From Naegleria gruberi (lineage: Eukaryota): a stretch of 64,000 bases of DNA. The notes beneath the pieces are model-generated. The model was not told the origin of the DNA. It searched no databases and saw only the letters and a list, made by a program, of their open reading frames with translations. Shown here piece after piece: positions 7,862 to 62,480 of this stretch. The stretch is taken from assembly GCA_000004985.1 (NCBI GenBank), contig GG738883.1; one strand, 5' to 3'. Within the stretch, counting starts at the first letter, position 1. Each line of letters starts with the position of its first letter. A program made the translations under genes and the position numbers.

Positions 7862-8027
7862 AATAAAATTATCATTACTTTCAAATGAAAATTAGTTTGA
7901 AAATTAGAGAATCTATTTTGATCTTGTTCAATCAATATTGATTTCTATTTTCAATCAACAAAGATTACATCAAAATGATTATCTTAAATTTTACAAAATT
8001 AGATAATCTAATTTAATTAATAAAAAA

Positions 8028-18222: not shown

Positions 18223-21186
18223 TTATTCCATCTTTGTTGGTGGTGGCAATTCAGTTGACTCTCCCTTTTGACTAGTAGGTGAAGCAAATGTAGCAGCTGG
18301 TGGAGTTTGTTGCATTTTCATATTAGGAGAAGAGAATTGAGCAAGAAGAGGCTTTCCAAATGGAGAAGGAGTGAAAGGACCACCAACTCCAAGTTTTGGA
18401 GTGCTTGCAAAAGGAGTTGGAGTGCTTGGAATAGCTTCCTTCTTTTCCTTCTTTGCTTTTTCCAAAGCTTCTTGTTCTTGTTGAAGTAATAACAATGACT
18501 TGGATTCTGTTTGGAGAGCTTTCCATTCCTTTGCAAGTTGAGTTTCAATAGCTTGGAAAATCTTAGTGAGTTGAGTATCAGATAAGGTGACACTCTTGAG
18601 TTGTTGCAAGGTGGTTTGGCAAAAGTTCTTCAAAGACATAATACTTTCCTTATATTCATCAAAGCTATGGATACACTTCTTATTTTCATCATCAATATCT
18701 TCATTATCCTTCTTTTCCTTCATCAAGAAAACTTCTTTTGGAACTGTGAGTAAGATGGAACCTAACAAGTGACTAACATATGAAATGTCCTTAATACATG
18801 TACTAACACTGATTTGGAAAGATAAGCTCTCTTGTTTGGTGAAACAAATGTATGGAATAATAAAATGTTCAAAGAGAAGAGAGTATGTTTGAACAAGCTC
18901 TGCAAGTTGAGTAGTGAGGAACCACTTAATATTACCAGACAAGAGAACTGGAATGGCATATTGTTGAATATCCTTGATAACTCTACAGCAATCAGAAATA
19001 AAAGAGTCAACAAAGTTGAATTCACGTTGAATGACAGATTTGCCAAATAATGATAATTCAGTAGTTTCACCTTCAAGGAAGAGTGTTCTGAAAACAAAGT
19101 TCAACTTGTGAAGGTTTTGAGAGTAGTAATGAGCATCACTTGGAATTTCAATATTTCTAAACTTTTCAATATCGTCATCCTTCTTTCTTTCAGTGGCAAA
19201 CTTTCCAATACCTTCATTGTCATTTGGAGTTTCATATCCTGAAATATTTCTGTGCGAATTAAAGGCAGCAATCTTGGCATTTTGGTGGAATCTCAAAATG
19301 GAGAAGATGAGTAACTTTCTTTCAAGGGAGTGCTTCTTGAGTTGTTCTTGTAAAGCATCCATTTCAATTGTAATCTTTGAAGATGAGGAAGCATCAGTAC
19401 TGAACAAGAGTCTTTGAATGAATGGATAAAATTCAAAAGCCAAGAACTCTGGGAGAGGAGGCAATTGATAAGGAATCTTGATTTTAAGCATGGCTTGAGC
19501 CTTATCTCCAGCATAGTATAACCTAGTGAGAGTTTCAATATATTCAACAAAATCATGTACATTGTGTACCTCCTCGAGGAATGACAAGTAAGTTGGCAAA
19601 ATACCAGCAGTATTTACAGGGACAACTGGTGAATTGGATTCAGCAACATTGATAGGGGCTGTTGGAACAGGTGTAGGTACATGGGCTTCATCAGTCATTT
19701 GTTGATCTTGATCTGATGATTTAAAACTAATCTTGATGGTTGTTCCCTTAGTGTTGGTATTAACAAGAGTGGTACCTTCTTTTTGTGGCTTAACTTTGAC
19801 CTTTTTCTTTGCTGATGCATTGGATTCTTCAGGTTCAGTGGCCTTTCTCTTATTCTTTTGCTTCAACATTGGCATGGATAAGAGAACTTGTTCAACGGAC
19901 TCTACAGGCATATTAGGGTGTTGAGAATAAATTAATTCCAATAAATAGAAGATTTCTTGAAGGAGTGTGTTAGAAATGAATGGAGATCTACAAATGACAG
20001 CAATATCTCCCCAAGCTTCACTATCAGAAGGGATATTGTCGAAAAAGTGTCTCAATTCTTTCATTCTTCTAACATCGAAAAAGTCTTTCAAATTGATAGT
20101 GTCAGAACTATCAACTTGTTTGTTTTCACCTTGTTGATTAATTCCTTCGATGGTTTCTTCCTTCTTGACAACAGGCTTTGCCTTAGCTTTGGAGCCCTTC
20201 TTTGGTTTGGCTTTTTTGGTTGCTCCTGTTGAAGATCCCAAAGAACCACTAGAACTGGCATGTGAAAGGGAAGCTTGATTTCTGGTGCAAGTAATCTCAG
20301 TCTTGGCATCTTCTGAATGTTCAGAATAGACATAATTCAATAAATTGGCATGTACAGTTCTAATCCAAGCGTCCAACCACCAACAAAAGTAATGGCACAT
20401 ATCCATTTGGTGAAGTTGTTGAACTTGATTGTCGTGAAGAGCCATCAAAAGATCATATCTGAATGTACACAAATGTCTACTTCCTGTTGCAAGGAGTTGA
20501 CTTCTACAATAGCCTAGAACTCTATGATATAACTTAGGGTCTTTTCCTAAAATATTGATCATGCTTGTCAATGTTTGATTTTTCTCTCTCTTCTTCTTTG
20601 GATCAATTTTATAGGTTGAAAGGAGGTCAATCTTGTAAATTTGAGGAAGGTCATACTTCTTCAGAAGAGTTGAAATGTGTTTGATAAACAAGTTTTCATC
20701 ATTTACCCATACTTGTCTCTTCACTTCAATAGGGAGATTTTTAAAAATCTCATTATTACCTTGAAGTTGTTGTAAAAAGTTGACAGGAATTTCATCCATT
20801 CTCTTCAAAAGAGAGTATACAATCGGACGTAATTCCTCAAATCCAATATATGGGAAAATTTGTTCCAATAGTTCCTTTTCTTGAGTTAATTCACTTTCAT
20901 TTTCAATTTTATCAAGAAGAATTTTCTTCAAATGGTTCATCAAACCAAAAAATAAATTGTTTCTTTGTACATTCAATAGATCGGTTAACTCCAAAATAGG
21001 CGGAATGCTTGGAGACACTGCATTACTAGATAATGATGAAAACTGTTTTTGAAAAGTAGTAATGGCAACCTTTGGATCACCAGAACTCAGCTTGGTAAGA
21101 ATATATTCTTGCCCTTCGGCTCCTAACAGCGCTCTTGAGTGATCAGAATTTGGCGGTTGATAACCTCCTTCACCACTTCCACTCAT
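18223..21186 (-). CDS. NELF-B (COBRA1)-like negative elongation factor subunit, single exon, 987 aa, with low-complexity insert and a coiled-coil C-terminal extension
   Basis: Conserved NELF-B blocks: PIEVKRQVWVNDENLF, KLYHRVLGYCRSQLLATGSRHLCTFRYDLLMALHD and DMCHYFCWWLDAWIR. An S/K-rich insert (ATKKAKPKKGSKAKAKP) and a C-terminal KEWKALQTESKSLLLLQQEQEALEKAKKEKK coiled coil are not part of the remembered family pattern. Confidence 0.65.
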   Translation of the reverse strand: MSGSGEGGYQPPNSDHSRALLGAEGQEYILTKLSSGDPKVAITTFQKQFSSLSSNAVSPSIPPILELTDLLNVQRNNLFFGLMNHLKKILLDKIENESELTQEKELLEQIFPYIGFEELRPIVYSLLKRMDEIPVNFLQQLQGNNEIFKNLPIEVKRQVWVNDENLFIKHISTLLKKYDLPQIYKIDLLSTYKIDPKKKREKNQTLTSMINILGKDPKLYHRVLGYCRSQLLATGSRHLCTFRYDLLMALHDNQVQQLHQMDMCHYFCWWLDAWIRTVHANLLNYVYSEHSEDAKTEITCTRNQASLSHASSSGSLGSSTGATKKAKPKKGSKAKAKPVVKKEETIEGINQQGENKQVDSSDTINLKDFFDVRRMKELRHFFDNIPSDSEAWGDIAVICRSPFISNTLLQEIFYLLELIYSQHPNMPVESVEQVLLSMPMLKQKNKRKATEPEESNASAKKKVKVKPQKEGTTLVNTNTKGTTIKISFKSSDQDQQMTDEAHVPTPVPTAPINVAESNSPVVPVNTAGILPTYLSFLEEVHNVHDFVEYIETLTRLYYAGDKAQAMLKIKIPYQLPPLPEFLAFEFYPFIQRLLFSTDASSSSKITIEMDALQEQLKKHSLERKLLIFSILRFHQNAKIAAFNSHRNISGYETPNDNEGIGKFATERKKDDDIEKFRNIEIPSDAHYYSQNLHKLNFVFRTLFLEGETTELSLFGKSVIQREFNFVDSFISDCCRVIKDIQQYAIPVLLSGNIKWFLTTQLAELVQTYSLLFEHFIIPYICFTKQESLSFQISVSTCIKDISYVSHLLGSILLTVPKEVFLMKEKKDNEDIDDENKKCIHSFDEYKESIMSLKNFCQTTLQQLKSVTLSDTQLTKIFQAIETQLAKEWKALQTESKSLLLLQQEQEALEKAKKEKKEAIPSTPTPFASTPKLGVGGPFTPSPFGKPLLAQFSSPNMKMQQTPPAATFASPTSQKGESTELPPPTKME

Positions 21187-21411: not shown

Positions 21412-22817
21412 TTACAAATTCTTATGGTAAAAAGTCACCAATAATTCCTTAAACTTATTCAGATTATTGAATTGGAATGCAATGTGATTATTACAAAAGT
21501 GTCGAGTTCTGGTGGATTCTTGAAAGCTCTCTGGGTATACAATGGTGCCCATATAGGATTGGACACTCTCTGGATTGTACTTATTCTTTGAGACTGATTC
21601 CATGGTTGCTTTGAGACAATCTTCTTGATTAGAGCTTGGAACTATCGAATCACCAACTGTTTGCAAGAAGAAAATTGTTCGATTATTGGAAAGGTTTACA
21701 TTTTTTAAGAGCTCAATTGGATCGTTGTGAAATGGGGGAAAACCAAAGTGAGAAACTTTGAGAGGTGAGACGCTCTTGATAGTTTCCAATCCAAGACTTG
21801 CAATAGGATCACTGGAGACCATTGCCTTAGCTCCAAACAAAAGTGTCTGATAGACGTTACAAGGAGGTGAATCAAGGAATGCAATTTTAATTCGATTCTC
21901 TTTGGCAAATGCAATTGCTGAAGTGGCAGCTCCCTACAATTATTTCAACAATTATTTAAATAGTCTAACAAATTTCACACTTACCATTGAGCTACCAAAG
22001 AGTCCAACATTATTAGTCTCATTGAGAAATGTAAATCTTTCCAATAAATAATCAAAAGCTCCTAAAACATCCAAATGTTCAAAATTTCCAAAGCTCACAA
22101 ACTTGATTGGCTCAAATAATGATGAATCACCATGATTTCTCAAATCAATTGATAATACATTATATCCTGCATGATATAAAATTCCAGCAGGTAATAAGCT
22201 ATCATATTTTAATCGACAAACTCTGTATCCATGAACAACAATTGCAAACTTAGAAGTTGAATTGATGATATCCTGTTTGTATAATGTTCCAACAATATTT
22301 GCAGTTCCTATTTCAATTATTCCAACATTCATTCGAACAATTTGAAATTAAACTTACCTAATCCTTGAACCCAATCCACAGGTCGACTCTTAAATTTTAC
22401 AATCTCAGTCTTTTCTGAATTAACATAGAAAGGAGCCAATTTCTCATACCATTGACTCTCTGGTTCAGTCAACGGAGGACAATCATATAACAGTGTGAAA
22501 TTTTGAGGAGAATTTTCTCTGAAATATTTACAATTCTCAGGCGCAATTTCAAAAGCAACATCAAATAAATAATTACCCAAACAGAACCATCCAACCACAA
22601 ACAAAGCACCAAAGAATAATAATCCAGTAATGCACAAAATGGAAAGTGTTGAGATGGCCACAATAATTTTACGTTTTCTGGTGGATGTTGTTGATGATTG
22701 TTGATGATAGTAGGTCTCCAATGTTGCAGGATCATCATGAGTGTGGTCATCCTCTAACTTATCAAAGGATGAATATGAATGATGATGAGGTCGAGTAACA
22801 AGTGAGCTTCCTGACAT
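21412..22817 (-). CDS. Membrane-anchored alpha/beta-hydrolase fold protein; 3 exons (22817..22358, 22307..21985, 21933..21412)
   Basis: N-terminal TM (IIVAISTLSILCITGLLFFGALFVVGWF). Two GTAAGT introns of about 50 nt (phases 1 and 0) join the three track ORFs. The joined sequence has the nucleophile elbow GLFGSSMGAATSAIAFA and an upstream FAIVVHGY block. Confidence 0.65.
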
Positions 22818-22866
22818 TTTTTATTTGATGTGACATTTCCAGTATTCGTTCGTCCGGATAACACAA

Positions 22867-23648
22867 TGAGAGCATTTTATCTCTAAACACAAATAAAAAA
22901 TTAATTACACAAATTTTTTGTGAATATTTGTGCTGAATTGTGTTAAAATATTTTCACAAATTTGTGTTTGAGTTTGTGAAGACAGGCCATTTTATCTTGC
23001 ACAAATACATATTTTTATTAAAATTATTCCAACTAATGTCTATCTCAATAGAAGGTATAAGTTGAAATCAGAAAGAATTTCTACAATATGTTGATTCGAA
23101 TGTAATGTATCCTAATTTAATTAGTGATGATGGAGTTGGTTCTGGTGGTGCGGAATCAATGAAAGCATGCTCCAAAAACAAACTGTTTTGTTCCAAATAT
23201 TTAATTATTCCATCTGTTACTGCTTTCCCTCTTTATTTCACTTGAATCTTGGGTTGTTGGTGGTGTTGGTGTTGGTTTATCTGATGAAGGTGTTCTTCTT
23301 ACATTTTTTAATATTTAATTAATAAAAAATGTATTAAACTTCTCCTTCATCAAACGGGAGAAGAAATCAGCAACCATTAGAACCCGATTCATGTCCAATT
23401 CTTGCAACAACAATATTGATATCGGATCACATATTTCAAGATCAACGACGAATGAACTTTTACTACTAGATTCAAAGAAAACAACCTAAGATTCAAGACC
23501 ACAATAATTTATTATTTTAATAAAATACTTTTGTGTTTTCACAAATATTTGTGCAAGATAAAATGGTCTGTCTACACAAACACAAATCACAAATTTTTAA
23601 ATCTGTGTAATTAATTTTTATTTGTGTTTAGAGATAAAATGCTCTCAA
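22867..23648. repeat. Imperfect inverted repeat (left arm ~22867-23027, right arm ~23511-23648) flanking a ~480-bp ORF-free core; MITE-like/foldback element or palindromic bidirectional-promoter module
   Basis: The termini are reverse complements: tgagagcattttatctctaaacacaaataaaaaattaattacacaa against ttgtgtaattaatttttatttgtgtttagagataaaatgctctca. A second matched block is gacaggccattttatcttgcacaaata against tatttgtgcaagataaaatggtctgtc. TTTGTG/CACAAA motifs recur in both arms. It sits between divergent genes whose ATGs are at 22817 (minus) and 23741 (plus). Confidence 0.55.
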
Positions 23649-23740
23649 TAAGAATCTTTTTCAATAATTATAATAAAAGTGTTAATTCTCGATTGTGGCA
23701 TAGTTTTTTGTAAATTCTGATATTTAACAACTAAATAAAA

Positions 23741-24460
23741 ATGCAACAACTTGACGAAGGAATTGACGAAGAAATCAACAGCAATTATCAACAAACAGAA
23801 ATATCCAACTCGGAATTGAATGAAAATTCCAATTCACCACAATTATCTATCAAGATTATCACATTCGGAGTATTGCATGGTAAAATTCCAAAGAATAGTT
23901 ATGATGTCTTGTACAATTTACAAGAACTTCCAAATCCTCTGACTGCACAAGCTAGAAAGAAGATGACTGGACTTTCAAAAGAGTTGAGAGAGGATTTCAT
24001 TTCCAATACAATGGTTAAATCTCATTTTGAAACATCGTATAGAGAAATTGTTGGAAAGTTGAATGAAAAATTAAAAGAATTGAGAAATATTGCTGTAGAA
24101 TTGGAGGATAAACCAGAGGAAGAGAAGGAAACCAAAGAAGATGAGGAAGAAAGTGAAGAAAATGAGGAAGACGAAGATGATGAGGAAGAAATTGAAGATG
24201 AAGACGAAGAAGAAGATGAAGAGGATGATGAGGAAGAAGATACTGATGAAAATACCTTTGTTATTGCTGTATGTTGTCACAAGGGAAAGCACAGATCTGT
24301 TTCATTTGCAGAAATTCTCAAAGAAAAGCTCACCTCAGATTCAACACTTCGTTCCTCAATTAGTTCCCTAAATGTTGTCCACAGGGATGTTCATAAGAAG
24401 GGTGCTTCCAACAATAACTCACGAGGCTCCCACAAGAGCAAATTCTTCAATGACTACTAA
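23741..24460 (+). CDS. Stand-alone RapZ (YhbJ) C-terminal-domain-like protein with a long acidic (D/E) insertion
   Basis: [46 protein letters not shown] aligns with the RapZ C-domain block ...[59 protein letters not shown] aligns with ...[22 protein letters not shown]. There is no N-terminal P-loop domain. About 55 residues of E/D separate the two blocks. Confidence 0.6.
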   Translation: [239 protein letters not shown]

Positions 24461-34512: not shown

Positions 34513-34668
34513 CGGCAAATTATTAATAATTTCATCACCTACATCAGTATGGTCGCTTAGTTCAGTCAAACAAGTCAATGAAACACCTACTCAATTTTAT
34601 TGAGACAAATTACTAAAATCACTAAGGTTTCGTTCATGCTCAAGTGACTTATTAAGGAAATAATTGAT

Positions 34669-34759
34669 GGTGAGATGGTCGAGTGGTCTAAGACGACACG
34701 TTAAGGTATGATTGATACCGTGTTCCGCAAGGGCGTGGGTTCAAATCCCACTCTCATCA
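34669..34759 (+). tRNA. tRNA-Leu (anticodon AAG), type II with long variable arm, with 11-nt intron at 34707..34717
   Basis: Acceptor GGTGAGA/TCTCATC plus discriminator A. D-arm GTC-GAGTGGTCTAA-GAC. Anticodon stem ACACG/CGTGT with loop TTAAGG[intron tatgattgata]C. Variable arm TCCGCAAGGGC. T-arm GTGGG-TTCAAAT-CCCAC. A downstream T-run gttttacattgacatttt follows. Confidence 0.8.
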
Positions 34760-34945
34760 GTTTTACATTGACATTTTAAATTCTTAGAGATTAAGCGTAA
34801 CACGACCGTTTAATTTTGATAAACCATTAAAAAATGAACGCAAACAACAGAAACGATCCACTTACTAAATTGTACGTTAGTGATAAGTGATAAGTTTTTC
34901 CTTAGTGCAATTATGAATTAATAAAACAAACTCTATAGACAAAAT

Positions 34946-59498: not shown

Positions 59499-59572
59499 TA
59501 CAGCGAGCGGGGCTTGAACCCGCGACCTTAAGCGTGTTAGGCTTACGATCTAACCAACTGATCTATCGCTGC
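59499..59572 (-). tRNA. tRNA-Val (anticodon AAC)
   Basis: Minus-strand GCAGCGATAGATCAGTTGGTTAGATCGTAAGCCTAACACGCTTAAGGTCGCGGGTTCAAGCCCCGCTCGCTGTA. Anticodon stem TAAGC/GCTTA with loop CTAACAC. T-arm GCGGG-TTCAAGC-CCCGC. There is a G1-U72 wobble in the acceptor stem and a 3' T-run. Confidence 0.75.
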
Positions 59573-59763: not shown

Positions 59764-62480
59764 ATGTCGACAACAAGTCACTTCAGTGATGAAAGTCTGC
59801 ATGATGATAATTTATTTGCAGAACATCCGATGGGAATTTATGATCAAGAAGAAAATCTTTACAAACACCAGCAACAAATCTATCGACCACTGAAGAAACT
59901 TTCCTCCACACAATTATCCACAGTTTACCTTTGTGAGAATTCTAATGGAAAACTTGTTGTATTAAAAGTTGCATCCTATGAAAATGAACAAGATACCATC
60001 GAGTGGAATCCGAAATTAGTTGAAGAATCGAATAGACTACATACACAATATCTACTTTATATTCTGGATGTTTTTACAGTGGAAAAAACCAATGGGAAAT
60101 ATTTGTGTGTAGTTTCCGAATATTGTGAGAATGGGAGTTTAGCAACAAGTATTGATGCTTTGCGTAAATCAATGAATGTTTCGTTATTCCTTCAGATATT
60201 ATTTCAAATGTTGCGTGCTTTGGATGCTCTTCATTTTGGTCTGTTTGTTCATGCTGATGTGAAGTTGGATAATATATTTGTGAGGAAATTTGATAGAAAT
60301 AGAGTATTTGTGGTATTGGGAGATTTGGGTTTAAGTTCCAAGATGGATTTTACTGAGGAGGAATTGTCTCAAAATTGTATTGATGTAGATAATGAACTGA
60401 CAACAGTCACTACAGGAGAAATTGGAACCTTTTCGTATAGAGATCCAATAATAATGAAACGAAGAAAAGTGTATTTCAAAAGTGATATTTGGAGTTTAGG
60501 TATGTTTCTCTTTTTTCTATTTGAGAATTGAACCTAATTTCTAAAGGAATAACTTTATTGAAATTGATATCAAGAGACGAAATGCCCAATTTTGAATCGA
60601 CAACAACAGAAGAAAGACTCAACACCATTCGACAAATATTTTCCCATTTTGAGACTGAAAAAAAAGAATGGGAAGTTTGTCAGAATATTATTGAACGAAT
60701 GTTAGTGGAAGATGTTACAGAGAGAGCAACTATTTCAGAAATTCGTTTAATGATTTATTCTACAACTATTGATGACTCATCATTTGAAAACAATTACCAA
60801 CATTTAAGGGAGGAATTCAAATACAACAGATCTGTAATTATTAGCTGTCTAAATGCAAAGGGAAGCATTTTACAACATGTACCTGATGCATTTCATTTCA
60901 ACAGAAAAATTGTAATGGAAGCAATTCACAATAATCCAAGCGCTTACCAATACATCAAAGGATACTTGAAATACCAACCATATATTGTAAACGCAGTTAT
61001 AGAAAGAGATCCATCTGTTCAAGTACCAGTTCATTTGGTAAAAGCTCCTTCACATTACGTTGCTAATAGCATTATCATTGAGCTTTCGGAACAAGAGAAG
61101 AATGACAAAGGGTTATTTATGGAAATTCTTGAAAGAGATGGTACGAGTTTAAAAGATGCCTCTTGGGAATTGAAAAATGATAGAGATTGTGTTATAAAAA
61201 GCGTAACACAGAGAGGAATTTCATTACAGTTTGCCTCAACTGATTTACGAAATGATGGAGAAATTGTGAGAATAGCTATTTCACAAAATGGAATGGCCTT
61301 AGAGTACGCTCATCCATTATTAAGACAAAGAGAAGATATTGTGATGAAAGCTGTTTCACAAAATGGATTGGCACTTCAATTTGCTTCAATAGAAATGAGA
61401 AATAATCAAAGAGTTGTGGAAAGGGCTGTATTGTCTGAATATACAGGCCAATTATTGTTTCTGATTGGTGAGGAATTGAGAAGTGACGTATCGTTCATGG
61501 TAAGATTGCTTAGTCTTAATCAGTTATTGTTTTTTCAATATTTGTTTTCTTTTGGAGAAGAATCTTTCAGAAATCTATGTGATGAGTATCAACATGAGGA
61601 TCAGTTTATTTGGTGTCTCAATGGATTGTTCGGCATTTTCGAAGATAACATTAATGGAGCACTGAAATATTTTCAACTTGCTGCAGAAAAAGACAATGCG
61701 TCTGCTGAACACTTCCTCGGTATAATGTACCATAAAGGACAAGTTGTGGAACAGGATTTTTGTAAGGCTTTTGAATGGTTTGGTAAATCAGCTGAAAAAG
61801 GATATCCAGAAGCTCAATTCTCGATTGGGTTAATGTATTATCACGGAGAATATGTTTCAAAAAATAAGGAAAGAGAATTTTATTGGATTTATAGAGCTGC
61901 TGAGCAAGGACATGTTAAGGCTGAAAGTTCTATTGCTTGTCTTTATTATGCTCAGGAAGAATATTCCAAATCATTTGAGTGGTATTTGAAAGCAGCTGAA
62001 AAAGGAGATTCAGATTCTCAATTTGAAATAGGTTCACTGTATCACAAAGGATTGGGAATACCAAAAGATTTTACAAATGCCTTTAGTTGGTATTCGAAAG
62101 CTGCAGAACATGGTCATTCGAAAGCTCAAAATAATATTGGAGTATTGTATCAAACAGGACAAGGTATTCCACAAAATTATTCCAAAGCACTTGAATGGTT
62201 CATGAAATCAGCTGAGAATAATGATACAGATGCCATGAATTTTATTGGACTGATATATCAAGAAGGCCAAGGAGTTCCACAAGACAACATCACAGCATTC
62301 GAATGGTTTCTAAAAGCAGCCGAATGTGGCAATGTACAATCTCAAATACTTGTCGCTACCATGTATCATCATGGTATTGGAGTGGAGCAAAACTTGTATG
62401 ATGCACTGAAATGGTATGAAAAAGCTGCAGGAGGAACTCAGAATAATTCAAAAGCTGATTCCAAAGAAATTGAGAATTGA
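59764..62480 (+). CDS. Degenerate protein-kinase (likely pseudokinase) domain fused to DUF4116 repeats and C-terminal Sel1 (TPR-like) repeats, about 890 aa; 2 exons (59764..60499, 60547..62480)
   Basis: The kinase-like region has a degenerate Gly loop, VLKVA in place of the VAIK lysine motif, HAD in place of HRD (LFVHADVKLDNIFV), and DLG in place of DFG. A GTATGT..AG 47-nt intron (phase 1) joins to DUF4116 repeats (DREIVLKAV/QNGxALQFAS pattern). About 8 Sel1 repeats follow (AQxxLGxxYxxGxGVxQDxxxAxxWxxKAAExG). Confidence 0.7.

What the first reader, a model, noticed from the sequence alone, without database searches (positions are those of the whole stretch)
22867..23648. A ~780-bp imperfect inverted-repeat element in the divergent promoter between the hydrolase and RapZ-like genes
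The two ends of the interval are reverse complements over about 45 nt (tgagagcattttatctctaaacacaaataaaaaattaattacacaa against ...ttgtgtaattaatttttatttgtgtttagagataaaatgctctca). A second matched block lies deeper in each arm (gacaggccattttatcttgcacaaata). The arms are about 140-160 bp, rich in TTTGTG/CACAAA motifs, and contain nested sub-palindromes. The core is about 480 bp with no convincing ORF. The left terminus lies 50 bp from the hydrolase ATG and the right terminus 93 bp from the RapZ-like ATG. Two readings are possible. One is a non-autonomous DNA transposon (MITE or foldback element) inserted into a bidirectional promoter. The other is a large palindromic regulatory module coordinating the two divergent genes. 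Either is unusual in such a compact genome.
Basis: seen in the sequence. Interest (0 to 1): 0.7.

Follow-up and report, generated by a model that had tools for sequence, protein, structure and literature searches.

The report
Strain-polymorphic inverted-repeat transposon in Naegleria promoter
The 780-bp inverted-repeat block is real and is most likely a small non-coding DNA transposon that inserted between two divergent genes of the amoeba Naegleria gruberi; a nearly identical strain has the same gene pair without it, so it is an ordinary mobile element, not a regulatory module.

Summary
Window 22867-23647 (781 bp) has inverted arms of about 161 and 137 bp around a 483-bp non-coding core. The outer 33 nt are perfectly complementary. 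A single-strand DNA fold gives z = -16 against shuffles. The window is Naegleria gruberi NEG-M, by exact protein matches.

The decisive result is an empty site. An ENA metagenome contig from a near-identical strain (95-98% nt identity in the flanks) carries the same hydrolase / RapZ-like gene pair but lacks exactly this block. The junction shares up to 4 bp (CAAT). The only symmetric readings are a 3-bp duplication AAT around GAGAG...CTCTC, or 1 bp (A) around TG...CA. N. lovaniensis has only a 130-bp spacer upstream of its RapZ-like gene.

Each arm carries an outer and an inner copy of a CATTTTATCT...CACAAATA motif. The arms also hold 15 CACAAA/TTTGTG hexamers, 36 times the window density, and the core holds none. 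This looks like transposase binding sites.

Best reading: a non-autonomous terminal-inverted-repeat (MITE-like) DNA transposon, recently inserted or polymorphic. The regulatory-palindrome reading is not supported.

Not established: genome copy number, a consensus target-site duplication, the superfamily and the autonomous partner. The N. gruberi genome could not be reached with these tools. This is an ordinary kind of feature of modest interest.

The parts
22867..23647 (.). Whole inverted-repeat element (781 bp counting the T...A pair; 779 bp, 22868-23646, if the duplication is AAT)
   Evidence: Inverted repeats. Absent as a block from L001. Fold z = -16.
22865..22867 (.). Left copy of the candidate 3-bp target-site duplication AAT (largest shared junction sequence is CAAT, 22864-22867)
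   Evidence: Junction comparison with the empty site in L001...aacacAATaagaatc....
23647..23649 (.). Right copy of the candidate 3-bp target-site duplication AAT (largest shared junction sequence is CAAT, 23646-23649)
22867..23027 (+). Left arm (about 161 bp, 23% GC), with 8 CACAAA/TTTGTG hexamers including the palindromic sites CACAAATTTGTG (22955-22966) and CACAAATTTTTTGTG (22908-22922)
23511..23647 (-). Right arm (about 137 bp, 23% GC), with 7 hexamers including the palindromic site CACAAATATTTGTG (23540-23553)
22867..22899 (+). Left outer repeat (terminal 33-mer TGAGAGCATTTTATCTCTAAACACAAATAAAAA); inferred outer transposase site
23615..23647 (-). Right outer repeat, identical to the left one
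22981..23007 (+). Left inner repeat GACAGGCCATTTTATCTTGCACAAATA. It shares CATTTTATCT...CACAAATA with the outer repeat, in the same orientation within the arm.
   Evidence: (D9, I11).
23546..23572 (-). Right inner repeat GACAGACCATTTTATCTTGCACAAATA
23028..23510 (.). Non-coding core (483 bp, 32% GC). It has no hexamer motif, no ORF above 51 aa, and no protein or Rfam match.
23300..23333 (.). AT-rich palindrome inside the core (TACATTTTTTAATATTT/AATTAATAAAAAATGTA). It weakly resembles AT-rich sequence just upstream of several start codons in the window.
   Evidence: I7, where the hits have E of only 0.01-0.5, so this is not significant.
23241..23497 (.). Inner 18-nt inverted repeat pair within the core (23241-23258 / 23480-23497, 94%); meaning unknown
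   Evidence: I6.
22329..22817 (-). First exon of the flanking alpha/beta-hydrolase gene (the gene continues to about 21415 through frame changes that look like introns)
   Evidence: homologues carry PF12146/PF00561.
23741..24460 (+). Flanking gene for a RapZ C-terminal-domain protein (NAEGRDRAFT_70261, EFC41799)

Best explanation
The block is a non-autonomous class II (cut-and-paste type) transposable element of MITE size with long terminal inverted repeats. It lies in the nuclear genome of Naegleria gruberi NEG-M. It inserted into what was a 147-bp spacer between a divergent alpha/beta-hydrolase gene and a RapZ-C-domain gene, probably with a 3-bp duplication (AAT).

Inferred mechanism: a transposase encoded elsewhere binds the outer and inner CATTTTATCT...CACAAATA repeats, and perhaps the reiterated or palindromic CACAAA/TTTGTG sites. 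These give two or more sites per end, as in IR-DR-type or subterminal-repeat transposons. The transposase would pair the two ends, excise the element and integrate it.

Shown here: the inverted-repeat anatomy, the absence of coding capacity, and the presence/absence polymorphism with clean boundaries at the repeat tips.

Inferred, not shown: transposase binding, the cut-and-paste chemistry, the size of the duplication, and membership of a multi-copy family.

Consequence: each gene keeps only 49 or 93 bp of its native upstream DNA and now abuts a near-identical arm. Whether expression changed is unknown.
For: - Organism: exact matches to N. gruberi NEG-M proteins EFC41809, EFC41797, EFC41799 and EFC41792 on a 371,401-bp scaffold. 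tRNA-Val(AAC) fits a eukaryote.
- Empty site: L001, an ENA metagenome contig, aligns at 98.4% to the left flank and 95.2% to the right flank. It joins window 22871 directly to 23646, with no trace of the element.
- Boundaries: the limits of the indel coincide to the base with the tips of the inverted repeat. The shared junction sequence is at most 4 bp.
- Ends: the outer 33 nt are perfectly complementary. Each arm has an outer and an inner copy of the same motif. Hexamer density in the arms is 36-fold above the window and zero in the core.
- No coding or RNA function is detectable in the core.
- Not conserved: N. lovaniensis has 130 bp between its RapZ-like gene and the neighbouring COBRA1 gene, and its hydrolase orthologue is on another contig.
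- DNA transposons are reported in Naegleria: Kolobok (PMC9587614); CMC-EnSpm and PiggyBac in N. lovaniensis and 5.1% repeats in N. gruberi (PMC6125883); DNA transposons and retrotransposons in N. gruberi (PMC12344493).
Against: - No second copy was found in the 64-kb window.
- None was found in JGI metagenomes. The terminal 23-mer gave 0 hits. The inner 21-mer gave two chance hits in unrelated coding DNA.
- None was found in IMG/VR or in prokaryotic genomes.
- No called ORF anywhere resembles any frame of the element.
- These negatives are weak, because none of those collections holds the N. gruberi genome.
- The duplication is ambiguous and short. AAT does not fit the TA, TTAA or TWA targets of the superfamilies most often linked to MITEs.
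- No transposase domain occurs in any window ORF of 150 aa or more.
- Polarity is not proven. The outgroup lacks the gene pair, so a precise loss in the sibling strain cannot be excluded.
Confidence: 0.72

Rival explanations
1. The block is an older resident sequence, either a regulatory palindrome or ancient insert. It was lost precisely in the sibling strain by slipped-strand deletion between the short direct repeats (CAAT) that flank a hairpin-forming palindrome. On this reading the 'empty site' is derived, not ancestral.
For: Long inverted repeats fold very stably, and by established knowledge they are prone to deletion between flanking microhomologies. A 4-bp direct repeat CAAT flanks the block. 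The outgroup cannot polarise the event.
Against: The flanks differ by only 2-5% between the strains. The empty allele has a normal compact 147-bp spacer and both genes. No conservation of the block was seen outside NEG-M. The motif-rich ends with outer and inner repeats are typical of transposon termini. Even under this rival the flanking repeat would most simply be the duplication from an original insertion.
Confidence: 0.1
2. The block is a one-off palindromic duplication created by replication or repair (hairpin-primed or template-switch inverted duplication). It is not a mobile element and has no family elsewhere.
For: It is single-copy in everything that could be searched. There is no recognisable superfamily signature.
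Against: Neither the arms nor the core resemble any neighbouring sequence from which they could have been copied. The arms differ by 39-bp and 15-bp indels while the tips are identical, which is not what a fresh inverted duplication gives. The internal outer/inner repeat architecture and the hexamer enrichment are hard to obtain by a repair accident.
Confidence: 0.08
3. The block is a different class of mobile element: a solo LTR (TG...CA ends), or a non-autonomous derivative of a tyrosine-recombinase element (DIRS-like, with inverted terminal repeats and no true duplication).
For: The block begins with TG and ends with CA. DIRS, Gypsy and other LTR elements are reported in Naegleria (PMC6125883; PMC3266345 lists putative N. 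gruberi DIRS-like hits but leaves their presence unconfirmed). A junction sharing only 1-4 bp is compatible with recombinase-type integration.
Against: There is no 4-6-bp duplication of the kind LTR integrases make. Inverted repeats of 140-160 bp are not an LTR feature. No internal complementary region matching the joined ends exists.
Confidence: 0.06
4. The block is an assembly or cloning artefact in the NEG-M reference.
For: Inverted repeats can arise as chimeric clones. Only one assembly shows the block.
Against: The arms are imperfect and carry indels. The core is unique sequence. The boundaries fall cleanly within otherwise collinear sequence. Artefactual foldbacks are normally perfect.
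Confidence: 0.03

Closest known systems
MITEs / short non-autonomous TIR DNA transposons in general
   Same: Terminal inverted repeats, no coding capacity, AT-rich, a stable foldback, size under 1 kb, insertion next to genes, and presence/absence polymorphism between close strains.
   Different: At 781 bp it is at the upper size limit. The TIRs are unusually long (about 140-160 bp). Multi-copy status and a consistent duplication were not shown here.
IR-DR type Tc1/mariner elements (Sleeping Beauty, Minos, Tc3, Bari3 type ends)
   Same: Long inverted repeats, each with an outer and an inner copy of the same roughly 25-30-bp motif in the same orientation. This is the arrangement of two transposase binding sites per end.
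   Different: The TA target duplication is not met. The filled site reads ...ACAAT|GAGAG...CTCTC|AATAAG, and the base after the left T is G. The termini do not resemble CAGT-type ends. No transposase is available to compare.
CACTA / CMC-EnSpm elements (CMC-EnSpm reported in N. lovaniensis, PMC6125883)
   Same: A 3-bp duplication is compatible. There are many short subterminal repeats in both orientations within about 150 bp of each end.
   Different: The termini are (T)GAGAG, not CACTA/CACNG. The TIR is far longer than the usual 13-28 bp.
PIF/Harbinger-derived Tourist-like MITEs
   Same: The duplication could be 3 bp. The termini start with G-rich purines (GAGAG).
   Different: The duplicated triplet would be AAT, not the usual TWA (TAA/TTA). 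Placing TAA at the junction breaks the symmetry of the ends.
Kolobok (reported in Naegleria, PMC9587614)
   Same: 5'-RR...YY-3' termini (GA...TC).
   Different: Kolobok makes TTAA duplications. There is no TTAA on either side of the element or in the empty site.
Drosophila-type foldback (FB) elements
   Same: A large fraction of the element is inverted repeat, and it forms a strong hairpin.
   Different: FB arms are built of tandem subrepeats and make 9-bp duplications. Here TRF finds only one three-copy CACAAAT run, and there is no 9-bp duplication.

Membership tests
Non-autonomous TIR DNA transposon (MITE-like) | Terminal inverted repeats at both ends | tested here: met
   33 nt at 100% and about 50 nt near-identical; arms of 137-161 bp in total.
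Non-autonomous TIR DNA transposon (MITE-like) | No transposase or other coding capacity | tested here: met
   Longest ORF is 51 aa. The six-frame query found no homologue. No Rfam hit.
Non-autonomous TIR DNA transposon (MITE-like) | Empty site in a related genome, with boundaries at the TIR tips | tested here: met
   L001 lacks exactly 22868-23646 plus one copy of AAT.
Non-autonomous TIR DNA transposon (MITE-like) | Target-site duplication of fixed length | tested here: inconclusive
   The junction shares 1-4 bp. AAT (3 bp) or A (1 bp) are the symmetric options. One copy cannot fix the length.
Non-autonomous TIR DNA transposon (MITE-like) | Multiple dispersed copies in the genome | not testable with these tools
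   Single copy in the 64-kb window. The N. gruberi assembly is not in any searchable collection.
Non-autonomous TIR DNA transposon (MITE-like) | Autonomous partner with the same termini | not testable with these tools
   No transposase domain in window ORFs. The rest of the genome is unavailable.
Tc1/mariner (IR-DR subgroup / Stowaway-like) | TA target-site duplication | tested here: not met
   The left junction is ACAAT|G, not TA|element.
Tc1/mariner (IR-DR subgroup / Stowaway-like) | Two direct repeats (binding sites) per inverted repeat | tested here: met
   Outer and inner CATTTTATCT...CACAAATA copies in each arm.
PIF/Harbinger (Tourist-like) | 3-bp duplication, usually TWA | tested here: inconclusive
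   3 bp is possible, but the triplet is AAT, not TAA/TTA.
CACTA / CMC-EnSpm | CACTA (CACNG) termini | tested here: not met
   The termini are TGAGAG/GAGAG.
CACTA / CMC-EnSpm | Subterminal repeats in both orientations and a 3-bp duplication | tested here: inconclusive
   There are 15 CACAAA/TTTGTG hexamers in both orientations. The duplication length is unresolved.
Kolobok / piggyBac | TTAA target duplication | tested here: not met
   No TTAA at either junction or in the empty site.
hAT / Mutator / P / Merlin | 7-10-bp target duplication | tested here: not met
   The empty site contains both flanks contiguously, with an overlap of at most 4 bp.
Foldback (FB) elements | Arms made of tandem subrepeats | tested here: not met
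   TRF finds only a 3-copy CACAAAT run at 23574-23594.
Solo LTR | TG...CA ends with a 4-6-bp duplication | tested here: not met
   TG...CA is present, but there is no 4-6-bp duplication.
DIRS-like element | Internal complementary region matching the joined termini | tested here: not met
   No match to the joined ends with up to 3 mismatches.
Conserved cis-regulatory palindrome | Conservation in orthologous promoters | tested here: not met
   Absent in the sibling strain. N. lovaniensis has a 130-bp spacer and a different neighbour gene.

The most novel reading that the evidence does not exclude
The element may represent an uncatalogued family of DNA transposons in Heterolobosea that is still mobile or was mobile very recently. 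It would have IR-DR-like long ends and an atypical 3-bp AAT duplication that fits none of the superfamilies tested here. Its insertion may have rewired a 147-bp bidirectional promoter, so that both genes now read out from near-identical arms. Read-through transcripts would form a hairpin with a stem of about 140 bp that could feed RNAi.
Probability: 0.15. Interest if true: 0.45.

Novelty: new member of a known kind. Interest (0 to 1): 0.27.

Why it matters
The block gives a clean case of presence/absence of a DNA transposon between two very close Naegleria gruberi strains. That implies transposition, or precise loss, on a recent timescale in a lineage whose mobile elements are poorly described. 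The insertion sits inside a very short bidirectional promoter, so the filled and empty strains are a natural experiment on how little upstream DNA Naegleria genes need. The outer and inner repeat motifs are concrete candidates for transposase binding sites, which could help identify the autonomous element. None of this changes current views of transposon biology.

Tried and rejected
- Other copies in the window: searches for the terminal 33-mer, the inner 27-mer and a motif pattern found only the two arms. The window-wide inverted-repeat scan shows nothing comparable elsewhere.
- Public DNA scans. The terminal 23-mer gave 0 hits in JGI metagenomes, IMG/VR and GTDB genomes. The inner 21-mer gave two hits in JGI, both inside unrelated coding sequence and so chance. 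A degenerate motif in IMG/VR gave 25 single hits with no extended similarity.
- Six-frame 'polyprotein' of the element against 5.8 billion proteins, hoping that spurious ORF calls on other copies would reveal them: none.
- Reaching the N. gruberi assembly through exact protein look-ups: it is not indexed. Only the ENA sibling-strain contigs and N. lovaniensis are reachable.
- Rfam on the block: one sub-threshold chance hit, Yfr10 at 24 bits against a gathering score of 43.
- Transposase domains in window ORFs: none.
- Origin of the core from neighbouring DNA, as captured host sequence: blastn found only AT-rich 14-39-mers and tblastx found nothing.
- Rejected on the junction sequence: DIRS-like internal complementary region, tandem-repeat foldback arms, Kolobok/piggyBac TTAA, Tc1/mariner TA, and 7-10-bp duplications.
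- Literature: no paper in the library describes MITEs in Naegleria. The ENA project PRJEB11402 is not mentioned in any held paper.

Full report
**What is there**

Window 22867-23647 is a 781-bp block whose ends are inverted repeats.
- The outer 33 nt (22867-22899 / 23615-23647) are perfectly complementary. The match continues at 95% through 22896-22916 / 23599-23619.
- A second block of 56 nt (22952-23007 / 23546-23601) is 82% complementary. It contains the near-identical 27-mer GACAGRCCATTTTATCTTGCACAAATA.
- When the left arm is aligned with the reverse complement of the right arm, the outer 50 columns differ by one gap and one mismatch. The left arm then has 39 extra bases, the inner block follows, and the right arm has 15 extra bases. 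The similarity ends at TTTTATTAAAAT. This gives arms of about 161 bp (22867-23027) and 137 bp (23511-23647) around a 483-bp core.
- The terminal 33-mer and the inner 27-mer occur nowhere else in the 64-kb window, and none is expected by chance. No other inverted repeat of this quality exists in the window.
- As single-stranded DNA the block folds at -149.6 kcal/mol, against -70.1 +/- 4.9 for shuffles, z = -16.

The only correction is that the repeat ends at 23647, not 23648.

**Anatomy of the arms**

Within each arm the terminal sequence (GAGAGCATTTTATCTCTAAACACAAATA) and the inner sequence (GACAGGCCATTTTATCTTG-CACAAATA) are copies of one motif in the same orientation (rows D9 and I11). Each end therefore has an outer and an inner repeat.

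The hexamer CACAAA/TTTGTG occurs 15 times in the 298 bp of arms, which is 50 per kb. The window as a whole has 1.4 per kb, and the core has none. Some hexamers form short palindromic sites: CACAAATTTGTG at 22955, CACAAATTTTTTGTG at 22908 and CACAAATATTTGTG at 23540. The arms are not tandem arrays.

**The core**

The core has no ATG ORF above 51 aa. A concatenated six-frame translation of the element found no related protein among 5.8 billion. Rfam gives only one sub-threshold chance hit. The core has no significant similarity to the rest of the window.

**Organism and context**

Four window proteins are identical to Naegleria gruberi NEG-M entries: EF2 EFC41809, AP-1 beta EFC41797, EFC41799 and EFC41792, all on a 371,401-bp scaffold.
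- The right-hand gene (23741-24460) is EFC41799, a protein with a RapZ C-terminal domain (PF22740, 2e-15).
- The left-hand gene starts at 22817 on the minus strand. It is an intron-containing membrane-anchored alpha/beta hydrolase.
- 49 nt and 93 nt separate the element from the two start codons.

**The decisive result**

The closest relative of the RapZ-like protein in the protein collection lies on a 3,284-bp ENA metagenome contig (L001, sample ERZ929261). This contig carries the same divergent gene pair. It aligns to the window at 98.4% (left flank) and 95.2% (right flank). The alignment jumps from window 22871 to 23646.

L001 reads ...cgtccgtataacacAATaagaatcttttt..., while the window reads ...cgtccggataacacAAT[GAGAGC...GCTCTC]AATaagaatcttttt. 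The block is therefore an insertion/deletion polymorphism whose limits coincide with the tips of the inverted repeat.

In the empty allele the two start codons are only 147 bp apart. The junction shares at most 4 bp (CAAT). The two symmetric interpretations are a 3-bp duplication AAT around GAGAG...CTCTC, or a 1-bp duplication A around TGAGAG...CTCTCA.

The same sample encodes an AP-1 beta protein identical to that of NEG-M, so L001 comes from a very close strain.

In N. lovaniensis the RapZ-like gene lies 130 bp from the COBRA1/NELF-B gene. The best hydrolase homologue (52% identity) is on another contig. The gene pair, and any 'module' between the genes, is therefore not conserved in the genus.

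**Interpretation**

These features point to a non-autonomous terminal-inverted-repeat DNA transposon:
- precise presence/absence in near-identical strains;
- long TIRs with identical tips;
- repeated candidate binding sites confined to the ends;
- no coding capacity;
- a short direct repeat at the junction.

The likely mechanism is inferred from established knowledge of cut-and-paste elements. A transposase supplied in trans binds the outer and inner repeats, pairs the ends, excises the element and reintegrates it with a short staggered cut.

The outer/inner repeat layout works like the IR-DR ends of some Tc1/mariner elements. The many bidirectional subterminal hexamers resemble CACTA or hAT ends. 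Membership in those superfamilies fails on tested features:
- there is no TA duplication and there are no CACTA termini;
- there is no TTAA (Kolobok, which is reported in Naegleria, PMC9587614; piggyBac, reported in N. lovaniensis, PMC6125883);
- there is no 7-10-bp duplication (hAT, Mutator, P, Merlin);
- AAT is not the TWA usual for PIF/Harbinger.

The superfamily stays open. Families that I recall as making 3-bp duplications (PIF/Harbinger, CMC, Zator, Academ) are candidates.

**Rivals**

1. The block could be older and have been lost precisely in the sibling strain, by slippage between the flanking CAAT repeats across a hairpin. The outgroup cannot polarise the event, so this keeps about 10%. 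Even then the flanking repeat is most simply an old duplication.
2. A one-off inverted duplication made by repair is unlikely. No source sequence is nearby, and the arms differ by indels while the tips are identical.
3. A solo LTR or a DIRS-type derivative is unlikely. There is no 4-6-bp duplication and no internal complementary region.
4. An assembly artefact is unlikely, given imperfect arms and a unique core.

**Limits**

The N. gruberi assembly is not in any searchable collection. Scans of JGI metagenomes, IMG/VR and GTDB genomes found only chance matches. No transposase lies in the window. No paper in the library describes Naegleria MITEs. N. gruberi is reported to have 5.1% repeats, including DNA transposons (PMC6125883, PMC12344493), so a MITE-like element there is not surprising.

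**Verdict**

It is an ordinary kind of element, a new or uncatalogued member of a known kind, with a useful strain polymorphism. Interest is about 0.27. Confidence in the transposon reading is about 0.72.

Noticed in passing
L001 2240-2251 versus window 23741-24460: In the sibling strain that lacks the element, the RapZ-like gene carries a premature stop. TCA (Ser) in NEG-M is TAA in L001, which splits the gene into 83-aa and 149-aa ORFs. It also has an in-frame indel near the N-terminus (gattcatcacaatccacacaa). This could be a pseudogene, strain variation or a metagenome assembly error.
   Followed up: partly
window 23741-24460: A eukaryotic protein carries a bacterial-type RapZ C-terminal domain (PF22740, E = 2e-15), interrupted by a long acidic low-complexity stretch. 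The only other relative found is in N. lovaniensis (42% identity). This may be an old horizontal acquisition in Naegleria.
   Followed up: partly
window 21412-22817 and L005: The hydrolase / RapZ-like divergent arrangement is specific to N. gruberi. In N. lovaniensis the RapZ-like gene sits 130 bp from the COBRA1/NELF-B gene, and the hydrolase orthologue (P0017) is on a different contig. A N. gruberi paralogue (P0020, 47% identity) also exists.
   Followed up: partly
window 34668-34760: ARAGORN calls a 93-nt tRNA with an undetermined anticodon, probably an intron-containing tRNA gene. A normal tRNA-Val(AAC) lies at 59499-59572.
   Followed up: no
window 22842 versus L001 1873-1877: A 5-bp indel (gttaa, present in L001 and absent in NEG-M) lies 25 bp upstream of the hydrolase ATG, inside the short promoter and close to the insertion site.
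   Followed up: no
window 23293-23341: The AT-rich palindrome in the middle of the element's core weakly resembles sequence immediately upstream of several start codons in the window (near 8027, 12076, 21204, 25007, 25638 and 26999). With E values of 0.01-0.5 this may only reflect shared AT-rich composition. It could also hint at promoter-like sequence inside the element.
   Followed up: partly
window 60528-62480: A 650-aa ORF combines four DUF4116 repeats with six Sel1 repeats.
   Followed up: no
window 18223-21186: A 987-aa ORF has a COBRA1/NELF-B domain (E = 4e-37). It is conserved and syntenic with an amino-acid transporter gene in N. lovaniensis (L005).
   Followed up: no
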